32,474 bases of DNA from a virus (IMGVR_UViG_2554235297_000015), one strand, 5' to 3'. Counted from the first letter of the stretch, positions 4,567-11,529 are shown. The notes: a model not told the origin generated them from the letters alone. Program-made: numbers and translations.

Positions 4567-4738
4567 TCAGCTATATCCGCCAGGGACTCGCTTCATGCAC
4601 ATTGCACATCGGGCAGTGCGTGGTGGTCGGGTGGTAAAAACTGTTGCACCTGCCAGAGATTTTAAATGTGGTTGTGTGGTTGAAATTAATGTCGAGCCTT
4701 ATTTCGTTAAAGTCGAAACACTGAAAGCACCGCATTAA
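4547..4738 (+). CDS. hypothetical early protein, 63 aa
   Basis: Start overlaps the end of the upstream gene. No family recognised. Confidence 0.4.
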   Translation: MNAKRFNQLYPPGTRFMHIAHRAVRGGRVVKTVAPARDFKCGCVVEINVEPYFVKVETLKAPH

Positions 4739-4768
4739 TTTAATTTGTTTTTAATTGTTATTTAAAAC

Positions 4769-4800
4769 AGGCGTAAACCCGCAGGGGCTGGCTTACGCCT
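4769..4800 (-). terminator. stem-loop downstream of the reverse-oriented gene, putative terminator
   Basis: AGGCGTAA ... TTACGCCT inverted repeat (8 bp stem). On the - strand it is followed by an A/T-rich tract. On the + strand no T-run follows. Confidence 0.4.
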
Positions 4801-4878
4801 GAATCTGAGGAAGTTTATTTATGAATATTGCTAAGCAAAAAAAATTCGCCCGCGAAATTAATCTGACAATCGTTTGTT

Positions 4879-5097
4879 TTAATCGTCTTGCGACCAGTTC
4901 TCAATCGACAGCAGATGTTCATCCAGCGCCGCAGCCAGAACGAACTCCCCACGTTCCTGAAGGCCGTGCTGGAAGTTGCGTAATTCAGAATCCAGGGCGC
5001 TGAGGTTCAGACAGCCATTTTCTGAAAGCTGTTTAACCAGAAAGCTCCACGCAGCTTTGTTAGCAGTAATTGCTGCCGCAATTTCATCATCAATCAT
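4879..5097 (-). CDS. hypothetical acidic protein, 72 aa, reverse-oriented relative to the early operon
   Basis: The - strand ATG is preceded by AGGAG with a 7 nt spacer. A stem-loop follows the stop. It is the only convincing - strand gene in the window. Confidence 0.6.
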   Translation of the reverse strand: MIDDEIAAAITANKAAWSFLVKQLSENGCLNLSALDSELRNFQHGLQERGEFVLAAALDEHLLSIENWSQDD

Positions 5098-5131
5098 TTT
5101 TTAACTCCTGATTGGGTATGTTGGGGCAGCG

Positions 5132-5140
5132 ATTATGACA
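5132..5140 (-). promoter_or_regulatory. candidate extended -10 element (TGTCATAAT) for the reverse-oriented gene
   Basis: The - strand reads TGTCATAAT about 35 nt upstream of the - strand ATG, inside an 88 bp divergent intergenic region. Confidence 0.3.
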
Positions 5141-5185
5141 AGTGTTTTGTGGTTATAAGTTGATCAAAAACAATGAGTTACAACC

Positions 5186-5896
5186 ATGAAAGATAAATAC
5201 ATTGCCAAAATCAAAAAACTGTTACGCCTTGCCAAAGGAACATCAAGCCCGGAAGAAGCCGCTAACGCTATTGCAAAAGCCCAGGCTTATATGCGCCAGC
5301 ATGGTATCAGCGAAAACGACGCGGAATTGTTCGACATTCAGGAAGCTGCCAGCGCGGGTGCGCCGAGTGACGCCAGTACGCCGCCGCGTTATATGCACAT
5401 CCTGTGTGACCTGGTCTGTAAAGCCTTCGGTGTCGAGTGTTACATCTCCGGCGAATACCGGGCTTCTGGTTCACTTAAACGTTACGTGCGTTTTTATGGT
5501 CCTGACAGCCGCCCGGAAATCGCGGCTTACGCGTTTGATGTGCTTTCCCGTCAGATGATGGCAGAGCGCAAGAAATATCAGGATAAACACTGCAAACGTT
5601 GTGGTCCGTCCACGCGGGTAGCCCGTGGCGACCAGTTCTGCGAAGGCTGGGTCTTTGGTGCCCGTGATGTCATTGCGGTGTATGACGTCTCCCCGGAAGA
5701 AAAAAGCCGCCTTGAGCTTTACAGAAAGAACCTGCACAGCACTAAGGGACTGCGCGACGGGGATATGCGCACAGCTAAAGCGTGTCGGGGTGCAGAGTTT
5801 GCCGCTACTGCCGGTTTTATCGCCGGGAAGAACGCCAGGCTGCATCAGGGGGTTAATGGTCAGAGCAACAGACCGCTGGCACTGGGGAGGGTGTAA
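5186..5896 (+). CDS. hypothetical protein with a DUF2786-like N-terminus
   Basis: 236 aa. N-terminus KIKKLLRLAKGTSSPEEAANAIAKAQAYM resembles the DUF2786 signature common in phage proteins. Cys-rich C-terminal part (CKRCG). Confidence 0.6.
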   Translation: MKDKYIAKIKKLLRLAKGTSSPEEAANAIAKAQAYMRQHGISENDAELFDIQEAASAGAPSDASTPPRYMHILCDLVCKAFGVECYISGEYRASGSLKRYVRFYGPDSRPEIAAYAFDVLSRQMMAERKKYQDKHCKRCGPSTRVARGDQFCEGWVFGARDVIAVYDVSPEEKSRLELYRKNLHSTKGLRDGDMRTAKACRGAEFAATAGFIAGKNARLHQGVNGQSNRPLALGRV

Positions 5897-7059: not shown

Positions 7060-7543
7060 CTATCAGGCACTGCGTGAGGTGGCAGAGGCCGCGAAGGGGG
7101 ATACGACGTGGCAGAACCTACAGGCTTTTCATGCTGCGGCTACGCCGGAGGTTGTGCAGGCGTTGCTGGATGAAAACGAAAGACTGTGTCGCGATCTGAT
7201 AGCTCGTAATGGTGAGATTGAAGGGCTTCGGGAGTGGGCAGAAGAACTGGAGGCACGGGAGGTGGCTTTGCCAGTAGCGTCATGCATTGTTGAAGATGGA
7301 TGCATGTGTGTTGATGGGTTCAGTGAGTATGTAGGTCACTCGCTACCTGATGGAATGCATGAGCTTTATGCTGCCCCGCCAGCGTCGGTAGTGCCGGAAG
7401 GACTAGTTAAAGCAGTGCGTTTCTATGAACAGGTAAAGTGTGAGAATCCGCCAGTCGAAACCGGAGCATGGAAAGACGCGGTTGACTGGGTACTCAACGA
7501 GGCTTGCCAGGCTGTAAATATTGACGCCAAAGGAGGTGCGTAA
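7046..7543 (+). CDS. hypothetical protein, possibly Ead/Ea22-like
   Basis: GTG start preceded by AAGGAGG. N-terminus ALREVAEAAKGDTTWQ...AATPEVVQALLDENERL resembles the Ead/Ea22 prophage family. The family call is from memory. Confidence 0.5.
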   Translation: MSEINYQALREVAEAAKGDTTWQNLQAFHAAATPEVVQALLDENERLCRDLIARNGEIEGLREWAEELEAREVALPVASCIVEDGCMCVDGFSEYVGHSLPDGMHELYAAPPASVVPEGLVKAVRFYEQVKCENPPVETGAWKDAVDWVLNEACQAVNIDAKGGA

Positions 7544-7712
7544 TGCGTGTAGCGTTTATCGGTTTATTACCATACCCGACTCGTTTTTGGGCTTCTGCGC
7601 TAATTGCAAAGCCACATGCCCTGATGGCTGACAGCATCATCCCGGCACAAAAGCGCCATACCGGTATTGCTGCTGCACGACGCGAAGCAAAGAAACGCAG
7701 GAGAGCAAAATG
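7544..7712 (+). CDS. small basic protein, 56 aa
   Basis: Not in the ORF track (below its size cutoff). TAATG overlap with the upstream stop, ATGA overlap with the downstream start. Confidence 0.3.
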
Positions 7713-7898
7713 ATGAAAAACCGTAAGGCAAGACTGCTGATAGCAAAGCCAGGGCAACTTATCCGTATCTCAAATCGACTTGTTGTTCACTATAGATATC
7801 TTGGTTTTAGGGAGTGGTCCTCTATTCGTTTTTACGGTGTCTGGCGAAACAGAAGCGCGACACAAAACCGCTGGAAGAATCACACTAACGCAAAGTAA
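7710..7898 (+). CDS. hypothetical early protein, 62 aa
   Basis: AGGAGA upstream of the ATG. Confidence 0.4.
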   Translation: MMKNRKARLLIAKPGQLIRISNRLVVHYRYLGFREWSSIRFYGVWRNRSATQNRWKNHTNAK

Positions 7899-7915
7899 TT
7901 AAATAATAACCAATA

Positions 7916-7943
7916 GCAGACCAAAAAGTATTTTTTGGTCTGC
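7916..7943. promoter_or_regulatory. perfect 12 bp-stem palindrome (GCAGACCAAAAA gtat TTTTTGGTCTGC)
   Basis: Seen directly in sequence, followed by a second short inverted repeat CCAAAA-N6-TTTTGG (7943..7960). Lies in a 60 bp gap after the run of small early ORFs. Confidence 0.45.
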
Positions 7944-7956
7944 CAAAAGTGATGTT

Positions 7957-8244
7957 TTGGTCATTATGAAGATTGAACAAATCGGAATGGCAGCTTTCAG
8001 GCAACAGGCTGAAAGCGGTGGCGTGGATGAGTTCGTCGTGCAGCGGTTCGGTGGTGTGTATCATCTATTCGCTGTGAATCGCCGCGCCGGGGTGTCCTAT
8101 TTTCTACAGGAACGTCGTGGCGATTACAAGACATGGCTGTCTCTTGACCGTGCCGCTGCGTTCTTGTCAGGGATTGGCGTTTCACGTTTTACCGTGCGTT
8201 TTGAGGATAACAAACATGCTGAAAAAGATGATCGGGGCCATTAA
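7957..8244 (+). CDS. hypothetical protein, 95 aa
   Basis: ORF whose 3' end overlaps the gemA start. Alternative start ATG 7966. Confidence 0.4.
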   Translation: MVIMKIEQIGMAAFRQQAESGGVDEFVVQRFGGVYHLFAVNRRAGVSYFLQERRGDYKTWLSLDRAAAFLSGIGVSRFTVRFEDNKHAEKDDRGH

Positions 8245-8614
8245 AGCCGGTCAGGCGTATCTGGGGTGGGATGATGCCCTTTATCGCCAGACGCTGGCCC
8301 GCCTGACCGGTAAAACCAGCACCACACGCTGCAATCTCGATGAACTGCGCATCATCCGGGAATACATGCACGAACAGGGATTCCCGCGCAAGGCACCCGC
8401 TGGTAAAGGTCGCCGCCCTCGTGTTGCAATGAGCAGAAAATCAGTATTATCCAAAATTGAAGCGTTGCTGGCTGATGCCGGTCGTTCCTGGGCGTATGCA
8501 GAAGGACTGGCATCTCACATGTATAAGCAACATGTGATCGAATGGCTGACGGATGAACAGCTTTTTGGAGTGATGGTGGCGCTGGTTAAAGATTCAAGAA
8601 GGAGAAATCAATGA
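8216..8614 (+). CDS. gemA: GemA-like protein (Mu gp16 family)
   Basis: N-terminus MLKKMIGAIKAGQAYLGWDDALYRQTLARLTGK resembles Mu GemA. GAGGAT 7 nt upstream of ATG 8216. The ORF track opens the same frame earlier at 8117. Confidence 0.75.
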   Translation: MLKKMIGAIKAGQAYLGWDDALYRQTLARLTGKTSTTRCNLDELRIIREYMHEQGFPRKAPAGKGRRPRVAMSRKSVLSKIEALLADAGRSWAYAEGLASHMYKQHVIEWLTDEQLFGVMVALVKDSRRRNQ

Positions 8615-9087
8615 TGAAAAAATGGTTGTTTTGTTTAGTAGGGGTTATTTTCTCTTGTTCTGTGCTGGCACAGACAGAGGAACAGGCGCAAAAGGAACTG
8701 AAACGTTATCAGGATATGAAGCCATTGGCTGAACAGATGCTTCGGGAAAGTGGAAAACTTTATTACGCTATGCCAGAAGCTGCATCGCAGTATCAGCAGG
8801 GAAATATTGAAGAGTGGAAGAATATCAAAAAAGGACTAAAACAACTGGATGAACAGGCCAGTAAACTGGGGGACGACCCGCTTGATCCTGTGTATGGTTC
8901 CTGCATAAAAATGAAAAACCAGCTACAGGATTACTGGTCTAACGTTATCAGGGATGACAGGCAGTTTCTGGAGCGTTCAAGAAATCAGTTTAAAGAATAT
9001 CGTATGGATTGTTTTGATTCGTTTGTTTTTGGTAAAGAGCAAATAGAATCAAGAAAAGGCCTGGTTATTCTAGACCTGACTAAATAA
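8611..9087 (+). CDS. secreted or periplasmic protein of unknown function, 158 aa (AT-rich moron)
   Basis: AAGGAG RBS. N-terminal signal peptide MMKKWLFCLVGVIFSCSVLA with an AxA-like cleavage site before QTEE. Coding sequence is clearly more AT-rich than the flanking genes. Its own terminator follows. Confidence 0.7.
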   Translation: MMKKWLFCLVGVIFSCSVLAQTEEQAQKELKRYQDMKPLAEQMLRESGKLYYAMPEAASQYQQGNIEEWKNIKKGLKQLDEQASKLGDDPLDPVYGSCIKMKNQLQDYWSNVIRDDRQFLERSRNQFKEYRMDCFDSFVFGKEQIESRKGLVILDLTK

Positions 9088-9098
9088 GACTTAGTTTA

Positions 9099-9125
9099 GC
9101 CCCTGCCATGCAGGGGCTTTTTTTG
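9099..9125 (+). terminator. rho-independent terminator
   Basis: GCCCCTGC catg CAGGGGC stem-loop followed by TTTTTTTG. Confidence 0.8.
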
Positions 9126-9130
9126 TGGTC

Positions 9131-9158
9131 TGTACAGGCGATCATGTATGGCTATAAT
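9131..9158 (+). promoter_or_regulatory. candidate sigma70-type promoter for the Mor/C gene
   Basis: TGTACA (9131..9136), 16 bp spacer, perfect TATAAT (9153..9158), about 30 nt upstream of the ATG at 9188. Confidence 0.35.
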
Positions 9159-9187
9159 AACAGTAAGTTACTACCGGAGACGCCATC

Positions 9188-9655
9188 ATGCAGACCTTCA
9201 GTGAAACAGATCTTCGCGATGCGCAGGCACTGCTGCCCGATTCCGTGCAGCAACTGATTAGCGTGATTGGCTTCCCCGCCCTGACCCGGTTGATTCGTTC
9301 TTTTGGTGGCGTGACGTTAAGCGGTAAAACCGGCGTACACGCCGAACGCACCGGCGGTGTCCATGCCCTGTTACATGACGTGCTCACCGAAGACGAAATC
9401 AACAAACTGATCCGCTTTCTTGGCGGTGCTCCGTTTTACATTCCCCGTTGCGATCATGCGTTACGTGCCCTGCGTAACACCCGTTTTATGGCTGATTTAC
9501 AGCAGCATGTAAAAGACGGATGCTCACACCGGCAGGCGCTGGCACTGCTCTGTCCCCGTTACGGCATTTCAGACCGGTACGCATGGCAGCTGATACACCG
9601 ACGACAAAAACAGACTTCGCTGAAAAGCCCCACCCAGGTGGGGCTTTTTGATTAA
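9188..9655 (+). CDS. Mor/C-family transcriptional activator (Mu middle/late activator family)
   Basis: 155 aa. C-terminal HTH-like segment ...RQALALLCPRYGISDRYAWQLIHRR typical of Mor/C proteins. Located between gemA and the lysis genes as in Mu. GGAGA RBS. Confidence 0.7.
   Translation: MQTFSETDLRDAQALLPDSVQQLISVIGFPALTRLIRSFGGVTLSGKTGVHAERTGGVHALLHDVLTEDEINKLIRFLGGAPFYIPRCDHALRALRNTRFMADLQQHVKDGCSHRQALALLCPRYGISDRYAWQLIHRRQKQTSLKSPTQVGLFD
9627..9649 (+). terminator. rho-independent terminator overlapping the last codons of the Mor/C gene
   Basis: GCCCCAC ccag GTGGGGC stem followed by TTTTT. Confidence 0.6.
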
Positions 9656-9681
9656 TGGGCCTCAGAAAAAAGGAGACACTT

Positions 9682-9960
9682 ATGACCAACTATATGGCAC
9701 TTGGCGAGTATACGGCCTACTCAGAGCAGGCCCGGGATGCTGCCGGACGTCGCTTTGCTTATATGAAAAATTTGGCCAGTCAGTTAAACCGAATGGCCGA
9801 ACAACCGGATATGGTTGTTCAGGAAGAAGCGTTGCAGTGTGCCATTGCTGACATCATCGCCAGCGAAAACGAGATGCGCGCAGCGATGGAAAAGGCGAAC
9901 GCCTCTGCTCCGCTTTGTAATAAACCTCTTATTACGCCGGATTCTCTTTCCCGCTTCTGA
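9682..9960 (+). CDS. hypothetical protein, 92 aa
   Basis: ATG 9682 preceded by AGGAGA with a 5 nt spacer. The ORF track opens at 9655. No family recognised. Confidence 0.5.
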   Translation: MTNYMALGEYTAYSEQARDAAGRRFAYMKNLASQLNRMAEQPDMVVQEEALQCAIADIIASENEMRAAMEKANASAPLCNKPLITPDSLSRF

Positions 9961-9979
9961 TTTATCACCCCGCCGCCGC

Positions 9980-9997
9980 GGGGTGCTGAACTCCCCC
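9980..9997 (+). promoter_or_regulatory. dyad element copy A (GGGGTG ctgaa CTCCCC), upstream of the lysis cassette
   Basis: Imperfect copy of the GGGTG-CTGAA-CACCC dyad also found at 18138 and 30056. Overlaps an 8 bp GC hairpin at 9966..9985. Confidence 0.4.
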
Positions 9998-10142
9998 AGC
10001 AGTACCCACCACACCAGACCGTTTACCCTGTCCACTCAGACCACAAGGCACCTTAAGGGATAGCGCCCTGCAAAAGGCTTTTGTGCCTTTGACAGGGTGT
10101 TATTTACGGGCCGTCAGTGGCTCAGATTTACAGGAGAAACTC

Positions 10143-10535
10143 ATGTCTGAACCCTTATCAGGCGGCGGAGCTGTGGCAGTCACCATCGGTGGTGCCAGTG
10201 TGTTTGGCCTTCTCACCAATACCGATTTCGGGGTCGTGGTGGGCGCGTTTGCCGGGGCGCTTTTTGTTGTCACTCAGCAGAAAGAAATCCCGGTATGGCG
10301 AATGGCTATTCACCTGCTCGTCGCGTTTGTGGTTGGCGTTCTGGGGGCTGGCGTGGCTGCGTCACTGATGCAGTGGCTGACCCACTACAACGACAAACCG
10401 CTTGATGCATTGTGTGCGGTCGGTGTCTCGGCGTTATCCATCAAGATACTGACCTTTCTTTATCAACAGGAAATTTCATCGCTGTTCGGCCTGTTTTCCA
10501 GACTGCGCGGCGGAGGGGGTGGAAATGGAAAGTAG
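10143..10535 (+). CDS. holin-like membrane protein, 131 aa
   Basis: AGGAG with a 6 nt spacer before ATG 10143. Three to four hydrophobic helices. Immediately upstream of the endolysin. Confidence 0.6.
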   Translation: MSEPLSGGGAVAVTIGGASVFGLLTNTDFGVVVGAFAGALFVVTQQKEIPVWRMAIHLLVAFVVGVLGAGVAASLMQWLTHYNDKPLDALCAVGVSALSIKILTFLYQQEISSLFGLFSRLRGGGGGNGK

Positions 10536-10821: not shown

Positions 10822-11350
10822 CATTTTTGATGAAGTCCTGGGCAAAGAAGGCGGTTACGTCAATCACCCGGACGATAAGGGCGGTCCGACCAAATGGGGC
10901 ATTACGGAAAAAGTCGCCCGCGCCCACGGATATCGTGGCGATATGCGCGATTTAACCCGCGAACAGGCGCTGGACATCCTTGAAGCCGATTACTGGTATG
11001 GCCCGCGATTTGACCAGATCGCCGCATTATCCCCTGATATTGCCGCAGAGCTGTGTGATACCGGTGTGAATATGGGGCCAACCGTGGCGTCCAGAATGCT
11101 TCAGCGCTGGCTGAATGTGTTCAATCTGCGCGGCAGGCTGTACCCGGATATGGACGCAGACGGACGCATCGGGCCTCGTACCATCAGTGCATTGCGCGCC
11201 TTCCTGAATAATCGCGGTCAGGACGGTGAACGGGTGATGCTGACGGCCCTGAACTGTACGCAGGGGGACCGCTATCTGGAACTGGCAGAGAAACGCGAGG
11301 CTAACGAATCGTTTGTTTATGGCTGGCTGAAGGAGCGCGTGGCGGTATGA
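10805..11350 (+). CDS. endolysin, GH108-type N-terminal domain with a peptidoglycan-binding C-terminal domain
   Basis: N-terminus DDIFDEVLGKEGGYVNHPDDKGGPTKWGIT matches the glycoside hydrolase family 108 signature. No N-terminal transmembrane or SAR segment. Confidence 0.8.
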   Translation: MKSKDDIFDEVLGKEGGYVNHPDDKGGPTKWGITEKVARAHGYRGDMRDLTREQALDILEADYWYGPRFDQIAALSPDIAAELCDTGVNMGPTVASRMLQRWLNVFNLRGRLYPDMDADGRIGPRTISALRAFLNNRGQDGERVMLTALNCTQGDRYLELAEKREANESFVYGWLKERVAV

Positions 11351-11529
11351 CGCGTCAGCACTGGACCCACAGAACGCCACGTAAAGCCGCGCGCTGTGTT
11401 CTGGCCCTGTTTCTGGTGATGTTGCTTCCGGTGGGATGCACAGACATTAACAGAGCGGGCCAGCTGTTTGACGCGGCGGCGCAGGTCTGCCGGATTATCG
11501 ATGGTATCCGGCAGTGTTCACAGAACTGA
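11347..11529 (+). CDS. small protein with signal-anchor and Cys (possible spanin or lipoprotein lysis accessory)
   Basis: 60 aa. Hydrophobic LALFLVMLLPVGC followed by a polar tail with two more Cys. The lipobox is not canonical. Position is right after the endolysin. Confidence 0.35.
   Translation: MTRQHWTHRTPRKAARCVLALFLVMLLPVGCTDINRAGQLFDAAAQVCRIIDGIRQCSQN

What the first reader, a model, noticed from the sequence alone, without database searches (positions are those of the whole stretch)
8611..9125. AT-rich moron encoding a secreted protein between gemA and the Mor/C gene
The 158 aa ORF has an N-terminal signal peptide with an AxA-type cleavage site, is markedly more AT-rich than its neighbours, is translationally coupled to gemA (ATGA overlap, AAGGAG RBS) and ends in a strong terminator. 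In Mu, mor follows gemA directly. Here the insertion and its terminator separate the Mor/C gene from the early operon, and that gene has a candidate promoter of its own. A periplasmic phage protein made early could act in superinfection exclusion or envelope remodelling.
Basis: partly seen in the sequence, partly recalled or inferred. Interest (0 to 1): 0.65.

Follow-up and report, generated by a model that had tools for sequence, protein, structure and literature searches.

The report
Exported accessory protein in Mu-like prophage
A small AT-rich gene at the end of the early operon of a Mu-like prophage of E. coli E2348/69 encodes a probable periplasmic four-helix protein of unknown function, and it sits in a swap-prone slot that in sister prophages is empty or holds other exported proteins; this is a tidy but fairly ordinary phage accessory gene.

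Summary
ORF 8611-9087 (158 aa) is real and under purifying selection. It is the most AT-poor-in-GC stretch of the window (40% against 54%). It overlaps the gemA stop (ATGA) behind an AAGGAG site and is followed by a strong terminator. It has a conserved cleavable signal peptide and is not a lipoprotein. The window is the Mu-like prophage in eutC of E. coli O127:H6 E2348/69.

The gemA-mor junction is a swap slot. Among 58 near-identical E. coli prophages, 23 carry this family, 12 a 112-aa exported protein, 5 a 174-aa exported protein, and 18 nothing. One chimera joins this gene's signal-peptide codons to the 174-aa family.

The terminator and the mor promoter are also present in empty-slot prophages.

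The family is tiny (11 representatives among 1.8 billion proteins, all Enterobacterales transposable prophages) and matches no named family. The model is a generic four-helix bundle with two invariant cysteines.

The function is untested. My best guess is an envelope-acting protein made in the lytic cycle, for example in superinfection exclusion. It is a new member of a known kind, of modest interest.

The parts
8216..8614 (+). gemA (gp16 family). Its last ~9 codons (from about 8586) belong to the swapped cassette and contain the RBS of the next gene.
   Evidence: Pfam GemA E 1.5e-18. RefSeq calls it 'gp16 family protein'. The C-terminal tail differs between slot states.
8599..8604 (+). AAGGAG ribosome-binding site, 6 nt upstream of the ATG and inside the gemA coding sequence.
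   Evidence: Read from the sequence. The same junction is present in L002 and L036, and a related one in L004.
8611..9087 (+). orf158 (WP_000976762.1), a precursor of 158 aa. ATGA overlap with the gemA stop.
   Evidence: dN/dS 0.17 against the L002 allele. Family alignment.
8611..8670 (+). Signal peptide (residues 1-20, MMKKWLFCLVGVIFSCSVLA), with predicted SPase I cleavage A20|Q21.
   Evidence: Hydropathy. The -3/-1 rule is kept in all 17 homologues, and Cys16 is replaced by Phe in P0003 and P0005, so there is no lipobox.
8671..9084 (+). Mature domain, 138 aa, about 16.4 kDa, all-helical bundle. Invariant G64, C98, W109, C134.
   Evidence: AlphaFold2 pLDDT 83.6, pTM 0.74, helices only. Invariant columns. 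Composition.
8586..9097 (+). Approximate extent of the exchangeable cassette, relative to empty-slot prophages.
   Evidence: Alignment of six slot states. Conservation ends after GGTGGCGCTG (about 8585) and resumes at the terminator and promoter.
9098..9125 (+). Intrinsic terminator (AGCCCCTGC-CAT-GCAGGGGCT followed by T7), the end of the early transcription unit.
   Evidence: It is also present in empty-slot L003 and in L005 and L036. A second hairpin type (ACCTCCGC..GCGGAGGT) occurs in L002 and L004.
9131..9158 (+). Candidate promoter of the Mor-family gene (TGTACA, 16 nt, TATAAT).
   Evidence: 10 of 12 matches. It is invariant in all E. coli slot states. Both hexamers are kept in Salmonella relatives although the spacer differs.
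9188..9655 (+). Mor/C-family transcription activator. Not part of the cassette.
   Evidence: Pfam Mor E 1.7e-6 and phrog_836 E 3.5e-42. A hairpin plus T-run at 9626-9649 lies at its 3' end.

Best explanation
orf158 is a dispensable cargo gene in a recombination-prone slot at the 3' end of the early (Pe-type) operon of a Mu-like transposable prophage.

Shown or directly read:
- It is transcribed without a promoter of its own, as the last cistron after gemA.
- Translation starts by coupling at the ATGA overlap.
- Transcription ends at the lineage's own terminator, just before the separately promoted mor gene.

Inferred from sequence and model:
- The precursor is exported by Sec and cut after Ala20.
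- The 16-kDa mature protein folds in the periplasm into a four-helix bundle, probably pinned by a C98-C134 disulfide.

Inferred, low certainty:
- Because the early operon is repressed in the lysogen, the protein would be made within minutes of induction or infection. It would act on the envelope of the committed cell.
- The most likely action is blocking adsorption or DNA entry of superinfecting phages, or sparing progeny from dead-end adsorption. This would be analogous to T4 Sp/Imm or T5 Llp.

The slot is refilled by recombination between the gemA tail or signal-peptide codons on the left and the terminator on the right. This gives alternative exported cargo in sister prophages.

My probability is about 0.8 for the anatomy and the accessory, exported nature, and about 0.3 for the exclusion-type function.
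For: Anatomy.

Identity of the window (E2348/69 prophage in eutC).

Presence/absence and alternative cargo in prophages with 96-98% identical flanks:
- 58 genomes, of which 23 carry the orf158 family, 12 orf112, 5 orf174 and 18 are empty. Representatives were read.
- IMG/VR: 6, 5, 7 and 1 chimera.

All three cargo families have N-terminal signal peptides and low GC, 0.38-0.43.

Allele exchange rather than in-place drift: dS is 1.18 in orfX against about 0.1 in the flanks, and the first ~115 nt are nearly identical. The chimera L036 shares orf158's first 13 codons.

Real protein: dN/dS 0.17; invariant G64, C98, W109, C134 and a cleavable signal peptide in all 17 members.

Fold: pLDDT 83.6, all helical.

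No own promoter.

Tight packing behind the upstream gene in every lineage, by ATGA overlap or a gap of 10 nt.

Precedent for exclusion genes among accessory genes of the early operon of transposable phages: Ps56/Fc02 gene 10 (PMC9936078).
Against: - No experiment or homology links the protein to exclusion. Pfam, NCBIfam, PHROGs, PADLOC and the PDB give nothing.
- Overall purifying selection (0.17) is not the signature of an arms-race protein.
- In distant relatives the gene follows mor and abuts holin or endolysin genes, so early timing is not conserved across the family.
- Export, cleavage and the disulfide are predictions.
- Expression from the repressed prophage (read-through or an unrecognised promoter) is not excluded.
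Confidence: 0.5

Rival explanations
1. Lysogenic-conversion factor (a true moron). The protein is made from the repressed prophage and benefits the host, for example in gut colonisation, immune evasion or stress resistance of EPEC.
For: - AT-rich, strain-variable cargo is typical of morons.
- A neighbouring slot variant looks Sel1-like, a repeat common in host-interaction proteins, though the match is weak: Pfam E 0.026 and PDB 6ok3 E 0.0013.
- The exact protein is widespread in sequenced E. coli, on 993 or more contigs.
Against: - There is no sigma-70-like promoter within 700 nt upstream, and the gene is ATGA-coupled to gemA inside the repressor-controlled early operon.
- Hosts include dog, soil, river, cattle and pig isolates, with no pathotype link.
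- Only 23 of 5,426 complete genomes carry the family.
Confidence: 0.2
2. Lysis-associated periplasmic protein: an i-spanin-like, antiholin-like or other regulator of envelope disruption.
For: - The outline resembles an i-spanin. It has an N-terminal hydrophobic segment, a helical periplasmic domain and conserved cysteines, at about 155 aa. Compare the description of Mu gp23 in PMC9239132.
- In the Klebsiella phage ST405-OXA48phi1.1, Xenorhabdus and metagenomic relatives, the gene lies directly upstream of endolysin or holin genes.
- The window's lysis cassette has a 60-aa lipobox ORF (11347-11529) with no obvious i-spanin next to it.
Against: - Empty-slot prophages carry the identical holins, GH108 endolysin and 60-aa ORF, so the cassette works without orf158.
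- The family co-occurs with three different endolysin types: GH108, M15 and GH24/GH19.
- The AxA cleavage site is conserved and the hydrophobic core is only about 15 residues.
- The model is a compact bundle, not an extended coiled coil.
- There is no embedded or adjacent lipoprotein ORF.
Confidence: 0.07
3. Signalling decoy. The protein is a soluble copy of a periplasmic four-helix-bundle sensor domain that titrates a ligand or a partner, such as a lipoprotein co-sensor, to rewire host two-component or chemoreceptor signalling.
Against: - Sequence identity is 5-15%.
- The best Foldseek E-value is 0.078 and TM-scores are no more than 0.52.
- There is no profile match to any sensor family.
This is what any 140-residue up-down bundle returns.
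Confidence: 0.05
4. Chance ORF or annotation artefact in an AT-rich spacer.
For: No named domain in any library.
Against: - dN/dS is 0.17 at dS 1.18.
- The reading frame is conserved, with a signal peptide and two cysteines, in six genera down to 23% identity.
- The structure model is confident.
Confidence: 0.01

Closest known systems
Phage morons (lambda bor and lom, the HK97 gp15 element; concept of Juhala/Hendrix, reviewed by Cumby et al. 2012 as cited)
   Same: Extra gene present in some and absent from otherwise near-identical phage genomes. It has a deviant, lower GC content, is followed by a terminator, and its product is aimed at the envelope.
   Different: No promoter of its own. It is translationally coupled to an early lytic gene. 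The terminator is the operon's own and is also present without the insert. Expression from the repressed prophage is therefore doubtful.
Early, envelope-located superinfection-exclusion proteins (T4 Sp and Imm, T5 Llp, phi80/N15 Cor, HK97 gp15); from established knowledge, not tested here
   Same: Small phage proteins exported to the periplasm or membrane. Several are made early in the lytic cycle and are dispensable for growth.
   Different: No sequence or specific fold relation. Llp and Cor are lipoproteins, whereas orf158 is not (Cys16 is not conserved). No functional data exist.
Accessory genes of the early operon of Pseudomonas transposable phages, e.g. gene 10 of Ps56/Fc02 with exclusion activity (PMC9936078), and the plasticity regions of PMC4378225
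   Same: Non-core genes embedded in the Pe operon of Mu-like phages, variable between close relatives. At least one blocks superinfection.
   Different: Different position (next to ner, not gemA-mor) and unrelated sequence. Gp10 is found in the insoluble fraction, with no evidence of a cleaved signal peptide.
Mu gemA-mor arrangement (Mu: mor is the last gene of the early operon; quoting Mathee and Howe 1990)
   Same: The order gemA then a Mor-family gene. The empty-slot relatives reproduce it.
   Different: In this lineage a terminator and a promoter-like site lie between gemA and mor whether or not cargo is present. Mu itself encodes no exported protein here; its only membrane proteins are gp19, gp20, gp23 and gp25 (PMC9239132).
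Periplasmic four-helix-bundle sensor domains (Tar/Tsr, NarQ, TorS, QseE)
   Same: Size, all-helical up-down bundle, periplasmic location. The first helix is continuous with an N-terminal hydrophobic helix.
   Different: Soluble after predicted cleavage, with no transmembrane or cytoplasmic signalling part. There is no profile similarity and the structural scores are non-specific.
phrog_29261 (unknown function)
   Same: The distant family member P0019 (Yersinia) matches it at E 1.4e-19 and P0015 matches weakly. This is the only library family touching the group.
   Different: The window protein itself does not match, and the PHROG has no function assigned.

Membership tests
Moron (independent accessory transcription unit in a prophage) | Present in some, absent from otherwise near-identical phage genomes | tested here: met
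   18 of 58 E. coli prophages and 7 of 19 IMG/VR loci have gemA followed directly by terminator, promoter and mor.
Moron (independent accessory transcription unit in a prophage) | Nucleotide composition distinct from the surrounding phage genes | tested here: met
   GC 0.403 against 0.52-0.55. This is the lowest 0.04% of windows. The same holds in all homologues.
Moron (independent accessory transcription unit in a prophage) | Own promoter upstream of the gene | tested here: not met
   No sigma-70-like site on the + strand between 7907 and 9131. The start codon overlaps the gemA stop. Only a consensus scan was run, so weak or non-sigma-70 promoters are not excluded.
Moron (independent accessory transcription unit in a prophage) | Own terminator downstream | tested here: inconclusive
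   A strong terminator follows, but the same hairpin is present in empty-slot L003. Two hairpin types segregate with cassettes.
Moron (independent accessory transcription unit in a prophage) | Expressed from the repressed prophage | not testable with these tools
   Needs RNA-seq or qRT-PCR of the E2348/69 lysogen.
Sec/SPase I exported protein | Positive n-region, hydrophobic h-region of 10-16 residues, small residues at -3 and -1, no further hydrophobic segment | tested here: met
   K3 and K4; core W5-L19; V18-L19-A20|Q21. The next best 15-residue hydropathy window is 0.02. The pattern is kept in all 17 homologues. Actual export was not tested.
Bacterial lipoprotein (SPase II) | Invariant lipobox cysteine at +1 | tested here: not met
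   The IFSC motif's Cys16 is Phe in P0003 and P0005 and absent in distant members.
i-spanin (Rz-like) | Uncleaved N-terminal transmembrane anchor | tested here: not met
   Short core and a conserved AxA site. This is prediction only.
i-spanin (Rz-like) | Partner o-spanin lipoprotein gene embedded, overlapping or adjacent, within the lysis cassette | tested here: not met
   No lipobox ORF within or next to 8611-9087. The gene lies 1.0 kb upstream of the first holin gene, with mor and a 92-aa ORF in between.
i-spanin (Rz-like) | Conserved together with the lysis cassette | tested here: not met
   The identical lysis cassette occurs in empty-slot prophages.
Periplasmic 4HB sensor or ligand-binding domains | Profile-level sequence similarity to a 4HB sensor family | tested here: not met
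   No Pfam hit for any of the 17 members. No PDB sequence hit to sensor domains at E of 10 or below.
Periplasmic 4HB sensor or ligand-binding domains | Specific structural similarity | tested here: inconclusive
Known defence or exclusion protein families (PADLOC-DB) | Match to a model of a known or candidate anti-phage system | tested here: not met
   0 of 17 members match at E of 1 or below.

The most novel reading that the evidence does not exclude
The gemA-mor junction of this prophage lineage is a dedicated diversity locus for periplasm-directed effectors. Its cargo is shuffled by recombination inside the signal-peptide codons and at the terminator. orf158 is one effector that acts as a soluble mimic of a host four-helix-bundle sensor domain, or binds a specific envelope machine, to shut the door on competing phages or to rewire envelope signalling during lytic growth.
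Probability: 0.08. Interest if true: 0.7.

Novelty: new member of a known kind. Interest (0 to 1): 0.33.

Why it matters
E2348/69 is the reference EPEC strain, and its Mu-like prophage is little studied.

The result gives a clean natural experiment. Sister prophages with 96-98% identical flanks carry one of three unrelated exported proteins, or nothing, at the same junction. The contribution of each cargo can therefore be tested by simple swaps.

If the cargo proteins block superinfection or alter the envelope, the slot would be a compact source of new periplasmic anti-phage or phage-competition factors. It would also be an example of cassette exchange that uses signal-peptide codons as the recombination joint.

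If they do nothing measurable, this is one more orphan phage gene.

The analysis also corrects the idea that the insert reorganised mor transcription. The terminator-promoter unit around mor is a property of the lineage.

Tried and rejected
Searches that found nothing:
- Megablast of 7900-9900 against 50,697 phage records.
- tblastn of orf158 against the same collection. Only the distant member P0019 found one Klebsiella phage.
- Two scans of 185,579 species-representative genomes, with Mor and with the family alignment. The family is strain-level prophage cargo.
- Pfam, PHROGs, NCBIfam and PADLOC for the protein and for all 17 members.
- PDB profile search, which returned only designed helical bundles at E of 0.0013 or above.
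- BFVD viral structures, with no hit at E of 0.001 or below.
- Rfam on 7400-10200, which gave only sub-threshold terminator-like hits after mor.

- The AlphaFold database library was not available.
- The A3 alignment was too divergent for locus scanning.
- A literature search for E2348/69 plus 'Mu-like prophage' gave 0 papers, and the genome paper is not held.

Readings considered and rejected:
- Lipoprotein: the lipobox Cys is not conserved.
- i-spanin: see the rival explanation.
- Chance ORF.
- Recent foreign acquisition as the sole cause of low GC: low GC persists in members down to 23% identity.
- Rapid in-place divergence of the allele in L002: dS is tenfold above the flanks, which points to recombination.

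Full report
WHERE THE WINDOW COMES FROM

The 520 bases of the finding are 100% identical to Escherichia coli O127:H6 E2348/69 (NC_011601.1, 2,725,687-2,726,206). The RefSeq annotation around them shows a Mu-like transposable prophage inserted in eutC. In order it carries:
- an HTH repressor, a ner-like gene, the Mu transposase and the AAA ATPase B protein;
- a string of small early genes;
- a 'gp16 family protein' (gemA), a 158-aa hypothetical protein (WP_000976762.1), and a Mor-family activator;
- two holins and a GH108 endolysin;
- DUF1804, terminase, a DUF935 portal, protease and a Mu gpT-like head protein.

CHECKING THE OBSERVATION

Every descriptive element is correct.

- ORF. It runs 8611-9087 on the + strand.
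- Neighbours. gemA (8216-8614) matches Pfam GemA at 1.5e-18. The downstream gene (9188-9655) matches Pfam Mor and phrog_836 'late transcriptional activator'.
- Coupling. The gemA TGA at 8612-8614 overlaps the ATG at 8611-8613. AAGGAG lies six bases upstream, at 8599-8604.
- Composition. GC is 0.403 (GC3 0.403), against 0.521/0.526 for gemA and 0.547/0.571 for mor. Only 0.04% of equally long windows in the 32-kb sequence are as low, z = -3.0. Because GC3 is as low as total GC, the dip is not merely an effect of amino-acid content.
- Terminator. The hairpin at 9098-9118 (9 pairs, 7 G-C, T7 tail) folds at -22.7 kcal/mol, better than all 200 shuffles.
- Promoter. A TGTACA-16-TATAAT site lies at 9131-9158.

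IS IT A REAL, EXPORTED PROTEIN?

A word-indexed search of 5.8 billion proteins found 10 clusters. A full HMMER profile search of 1.84 billion representatives found only 11. Named members come from E. coli, E. albertii, Salmonella enterica, Yersinia enterocolitica, Edwardsiella tarda and Xenorhabdus nematophila, and all are annotated 'hypothetical'.

In the 17-sequence alignment, identity to the window protein falls to 23%. Every member still keeps the following:
- a basic N-terminus, a hydrophobic core of about 15 residues, and small residues at -3 and -1 before a polar mature N-terminus;
- four invariant residues: G64, C98, W109 and C134.

The Cys16 that could be read as a lipobox (IFSC) is Phe in two close homologues. 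The protein is therefore a signal peptidase I substrate, not a lipoprotein. No other hydrophobic segment exists.

Against the divergent allele in strain 08-00022 (L002), dN is 0.20, dS is 1.18 and dN/dS is 0.17. This is a coding sequence under purifying selection.

AlphaFold2 with the nine-sequence alignment gives an all-helical model with pLDDT 83.6 and pTM 0.74. By helix register, C98 (start of helix 96-112) and C134 (middle of helix 117-157) lie on neighbouring antiparallel helices, which is compatible with a disulfide. This is an inference, because the coordinates could not be inspected.

WHAT THE FOLD SAYS

Foldseek gives no hit below E 0.078 and TM-scores of 0.52 or less, again led by Tsr, Tar, PcaY and NarQ. 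BFVD gives nothing. Pfam, NCBIfam, PADLOC and PDB sequence profiles give nothing either.

The fold is a generic up-down bundle. The sensor-domain resemblance is a lead, not evidence.

THE KEY RESULT: A SWAP SLOT

A 2-kb query spanning orf95-gemA-orf158-mor-orf92 hits 58 of 5,426 complete E. coli genomes. I classified the slot states from the span of each match. Representatives of each state were read.

| Slot state | Genomes | Notes |
|---|---|---|
| This gene, 99% or more identical | 12 | |
| A 75-77% identical allele | 11 | |
| 112-aa ORF | 12 | MKKLLLLILTLCFTGISHA\|SD...; phrog_5882; weakly Sel1-like |
| 174-aa ORF | 5 | ...LLLSTPVFA\|DW...; phrog_19473 |
| Empty | 18 | gemA stop, terminator, promoter, mor, with 95 nt between the two genes |

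Nineteen IMG/VR contigs give the same picture: 6 with the orf158 family, 5 with orf112, 7 empty, and one chimera. The chimera (L036) has the gemA junction and the first 13 codons of orf158, fused to a mature domain of the 174-aa family.

All cargo genes are AT-rich, with GC 0.38-0.43 against about 0.52-0.55 in the flanks. All encode signal peptides.

The multiple alignment places the left boundary after GGTGGCGCTG (about 8585), so each cassette rewrites the last codons of gemA and carries its own ribosome-binding site. The right boundary is at the terminator.

Between the window and L002 the flanking genes are 97% identical (dS about 0.1). The cargo is 75% identical (dS 1.18), and its first ~115 nt are nearly the same. 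This is the mark of allele replacement by recombination, not of fast divergence in place.

One part is wrong: that the insertion and its terminator cut mor off from the early operon.

- Empty-slot prophages have the same hairpin (two substitutions, one giving a G-U pair) and the identical 70 bases up to the mor start.
- In Salmonella relatives both promoter hexamers are kept while the spacer differs. This speaks for a real promoter that belongs to the lineage.
- A second hairpin with a T-run (9626-9649, -21.2 kcal/mol, z = -2.9) closes mor. mor therefore looks like a monocistronic unit in all these phages.

The gene also fails the strict moron definition, because no promoter of its own was found.

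POSITION IN DISTANT RELATIVES

- In Salmonella prophages, members at 45% and 27% identity sit in the same place with the same ATGA overlap.
- In Xenorhabdus the order is gemA, an HI1489-like gene, Mor, X, a second Mor-family gene, then lysozyme.
- In metagenomic contigs the order is Mor, X, holin.
- In Klebsiella phage ST405-OXA48phi1.1 the order is gemA, an unannotated mor, X, GH19 endolysin.

Everywhere X is packed 10 nt or less behind the upstream gene and is followed by an intergenic gap of 80 nt or more. It is always the last cistron of a unit at the early-to-late boundary. Whether that unit is early or Mor-dependent differs between lineages.

RIVALS

An i-spanin-like or other lysis role was taken seriously, for three reasons. 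The outline (hydrophobic N-terminus, helical periplasmic domain, cysteines, about 155 aa) recalls Rz and Mu gp23. Distant members abut lysis genes. The window's lysis cassette has a 60-aa lipobox ORF without an obvious partner. The idea fails on these points:
- empty-slot prophages carry the identical lysis cassette;
- the family co-occurs with GH108, M15, GH24 and GH19 endolysins;
- the cleavage site is conserved;
- the model is compact;
- no lipoprotein ORF is embedded or adjacent.

A lysogenic-conversion role cannot be excluded without expression data. It is disfavoured by the coupling to gemA inside the repressed operon.

MOST LIKELY MECHANISM

Shown:
- the gene is accessory, real and positionally fixed at the end of a transcription unit;
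- it is translationally coupled to gemA, followed by the operon terminator, and exchangeable.

Inferred from sequence and model:
- Sec export, cleavage after A20, and a periplasmic disulfide-braced four-helix bundle.

Inferred from context only, at about 0.3:
- production early after induction or infection;
- action on the envelope, most plausibly exclusion of superinfecting phages or protection of progeny.

These context inferences rest on analogy with early exported exclusion proteins of T4 and T5 (established knowledge). They also rest on the exclusion activity of an accessory early-operon gene in Pseudomonas transposable phages (PMC9936078). Mu itself has no exported protein in this region (PMC9239132).

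VERDICT

This is a new, uncharacterised small protein family, but of a familiar kind: phage accessory cargo in a plasticity slot. Two details stand out. Three unrelated signal-peptide proteins alternate in one slot, and one chimera is joined within the signal-peptide codons. Both make the locus experimentally attractive. Interest is 0.33.

Noticed in passing
window 4614-5302 (ORF 4879-5097, minus strand): Second low-GC island of the window (minimum 0.409). It holds a 72-aa ORF on the strand opposite to the early operon (RefSeq WP_000564495.1, hypothetical). This is another candidate accessory insert. No promoter-like site was found by the scan.
   Followed up: partly
window 9098-9655: The Mor-family gene looks like a monocistronic unit. 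It is bounded by the terminator at 9098-9118, the TGTACA-16-TATAAT site at 9131-9158, and a hairpin plus T-run at 9626-9649 that overlaps its 3' end (-21.2 kcal/mol, z = -2.9). The consensus scan did not list the second hairpin. The promoter hexamers are conserved in Salmonella relatives while the spacer differs. How a near-consensus promoter for a late activator is kept silent in the lysogen is unexplained.
   Followed up: partly
window 11347-11529: A 60-aa ORF with a lipobox (LLPVG|C) lies directly after the GH108 endolysin. It is o-spanin-like in position, but no i-spanin-like ORF (N-terminal transmembrane segment plus helical domain) is adjacent or overlapping.
   Followed up: partly
window 7710-7957: An unannotated 62-aa ORF (7710-7898) has an ATGA overlap with the preceding ORF. 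It is followed by a 14-bp-stem AT-rich palindrome (7914-7945) and a weak promoter-like site (7879-7907), just before orf95-gemA-orf158. This could be a sub-operon boundary inside the early region.
   Followed up: no
L036 2398-2901 (IMGVR_UViG_2737471844_000002): A chimeric cargo gene. Its first 13 codons and the gemA junction are identical to orf158. The rest is a 167-aa homologue of the 174-aa slot protein (phrog_19473, E 2.2e-53). Recombination occurred inside the signal-peptide coding region.
   Followed up: yes
L014 4469-4560, L043 3780-3861, L015 739-872: In the three lineages where the family member lies downstream of mor, the intergenic gap after it carries a shared motif, CCACTGAA(C/G)CCCCTCA, with further ACTGA repeats. 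This could be an activator-dependent (Mor/C) promoter element.
   Followed up: no
L043 2819-3289 (MK388859.1, Klebsiella phage ST405-OXA48phi1.1): A 156-aa Mor-family gene (TTG start, containing the motif YLPRCEQALRELRN) is not annotated in the GenBank record. It fills the apparent gap between gemA and the family member.
   Followed up: partly
L001 1821-2258 (NC_011601.1): The prophage interrupts eutC, which is annotated as partial and missing its N-terminus. The ethanolamine-utilisation operon of E2348/69 is therefore disrupted at this point.
   Followed up: no
P0010 and P0012: Frameshifted or truncated remnants of orf158 exist in some E. coli assemblies. P0010 (106 aa) reads through the terminator sequence; P0012 is a 66-aa fragment. 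This is consistent with a dispensable gene.
   Followed up: no
H75, H76 (NZ_OZ547097.1, NZ_OZ547049.1): Two empty-slot copies of the gemA-mor region lie on records of about 249 kb that are classed as plasmids. A Mu-like element has apparently transposed into a large plasmid.
   Followed up: no
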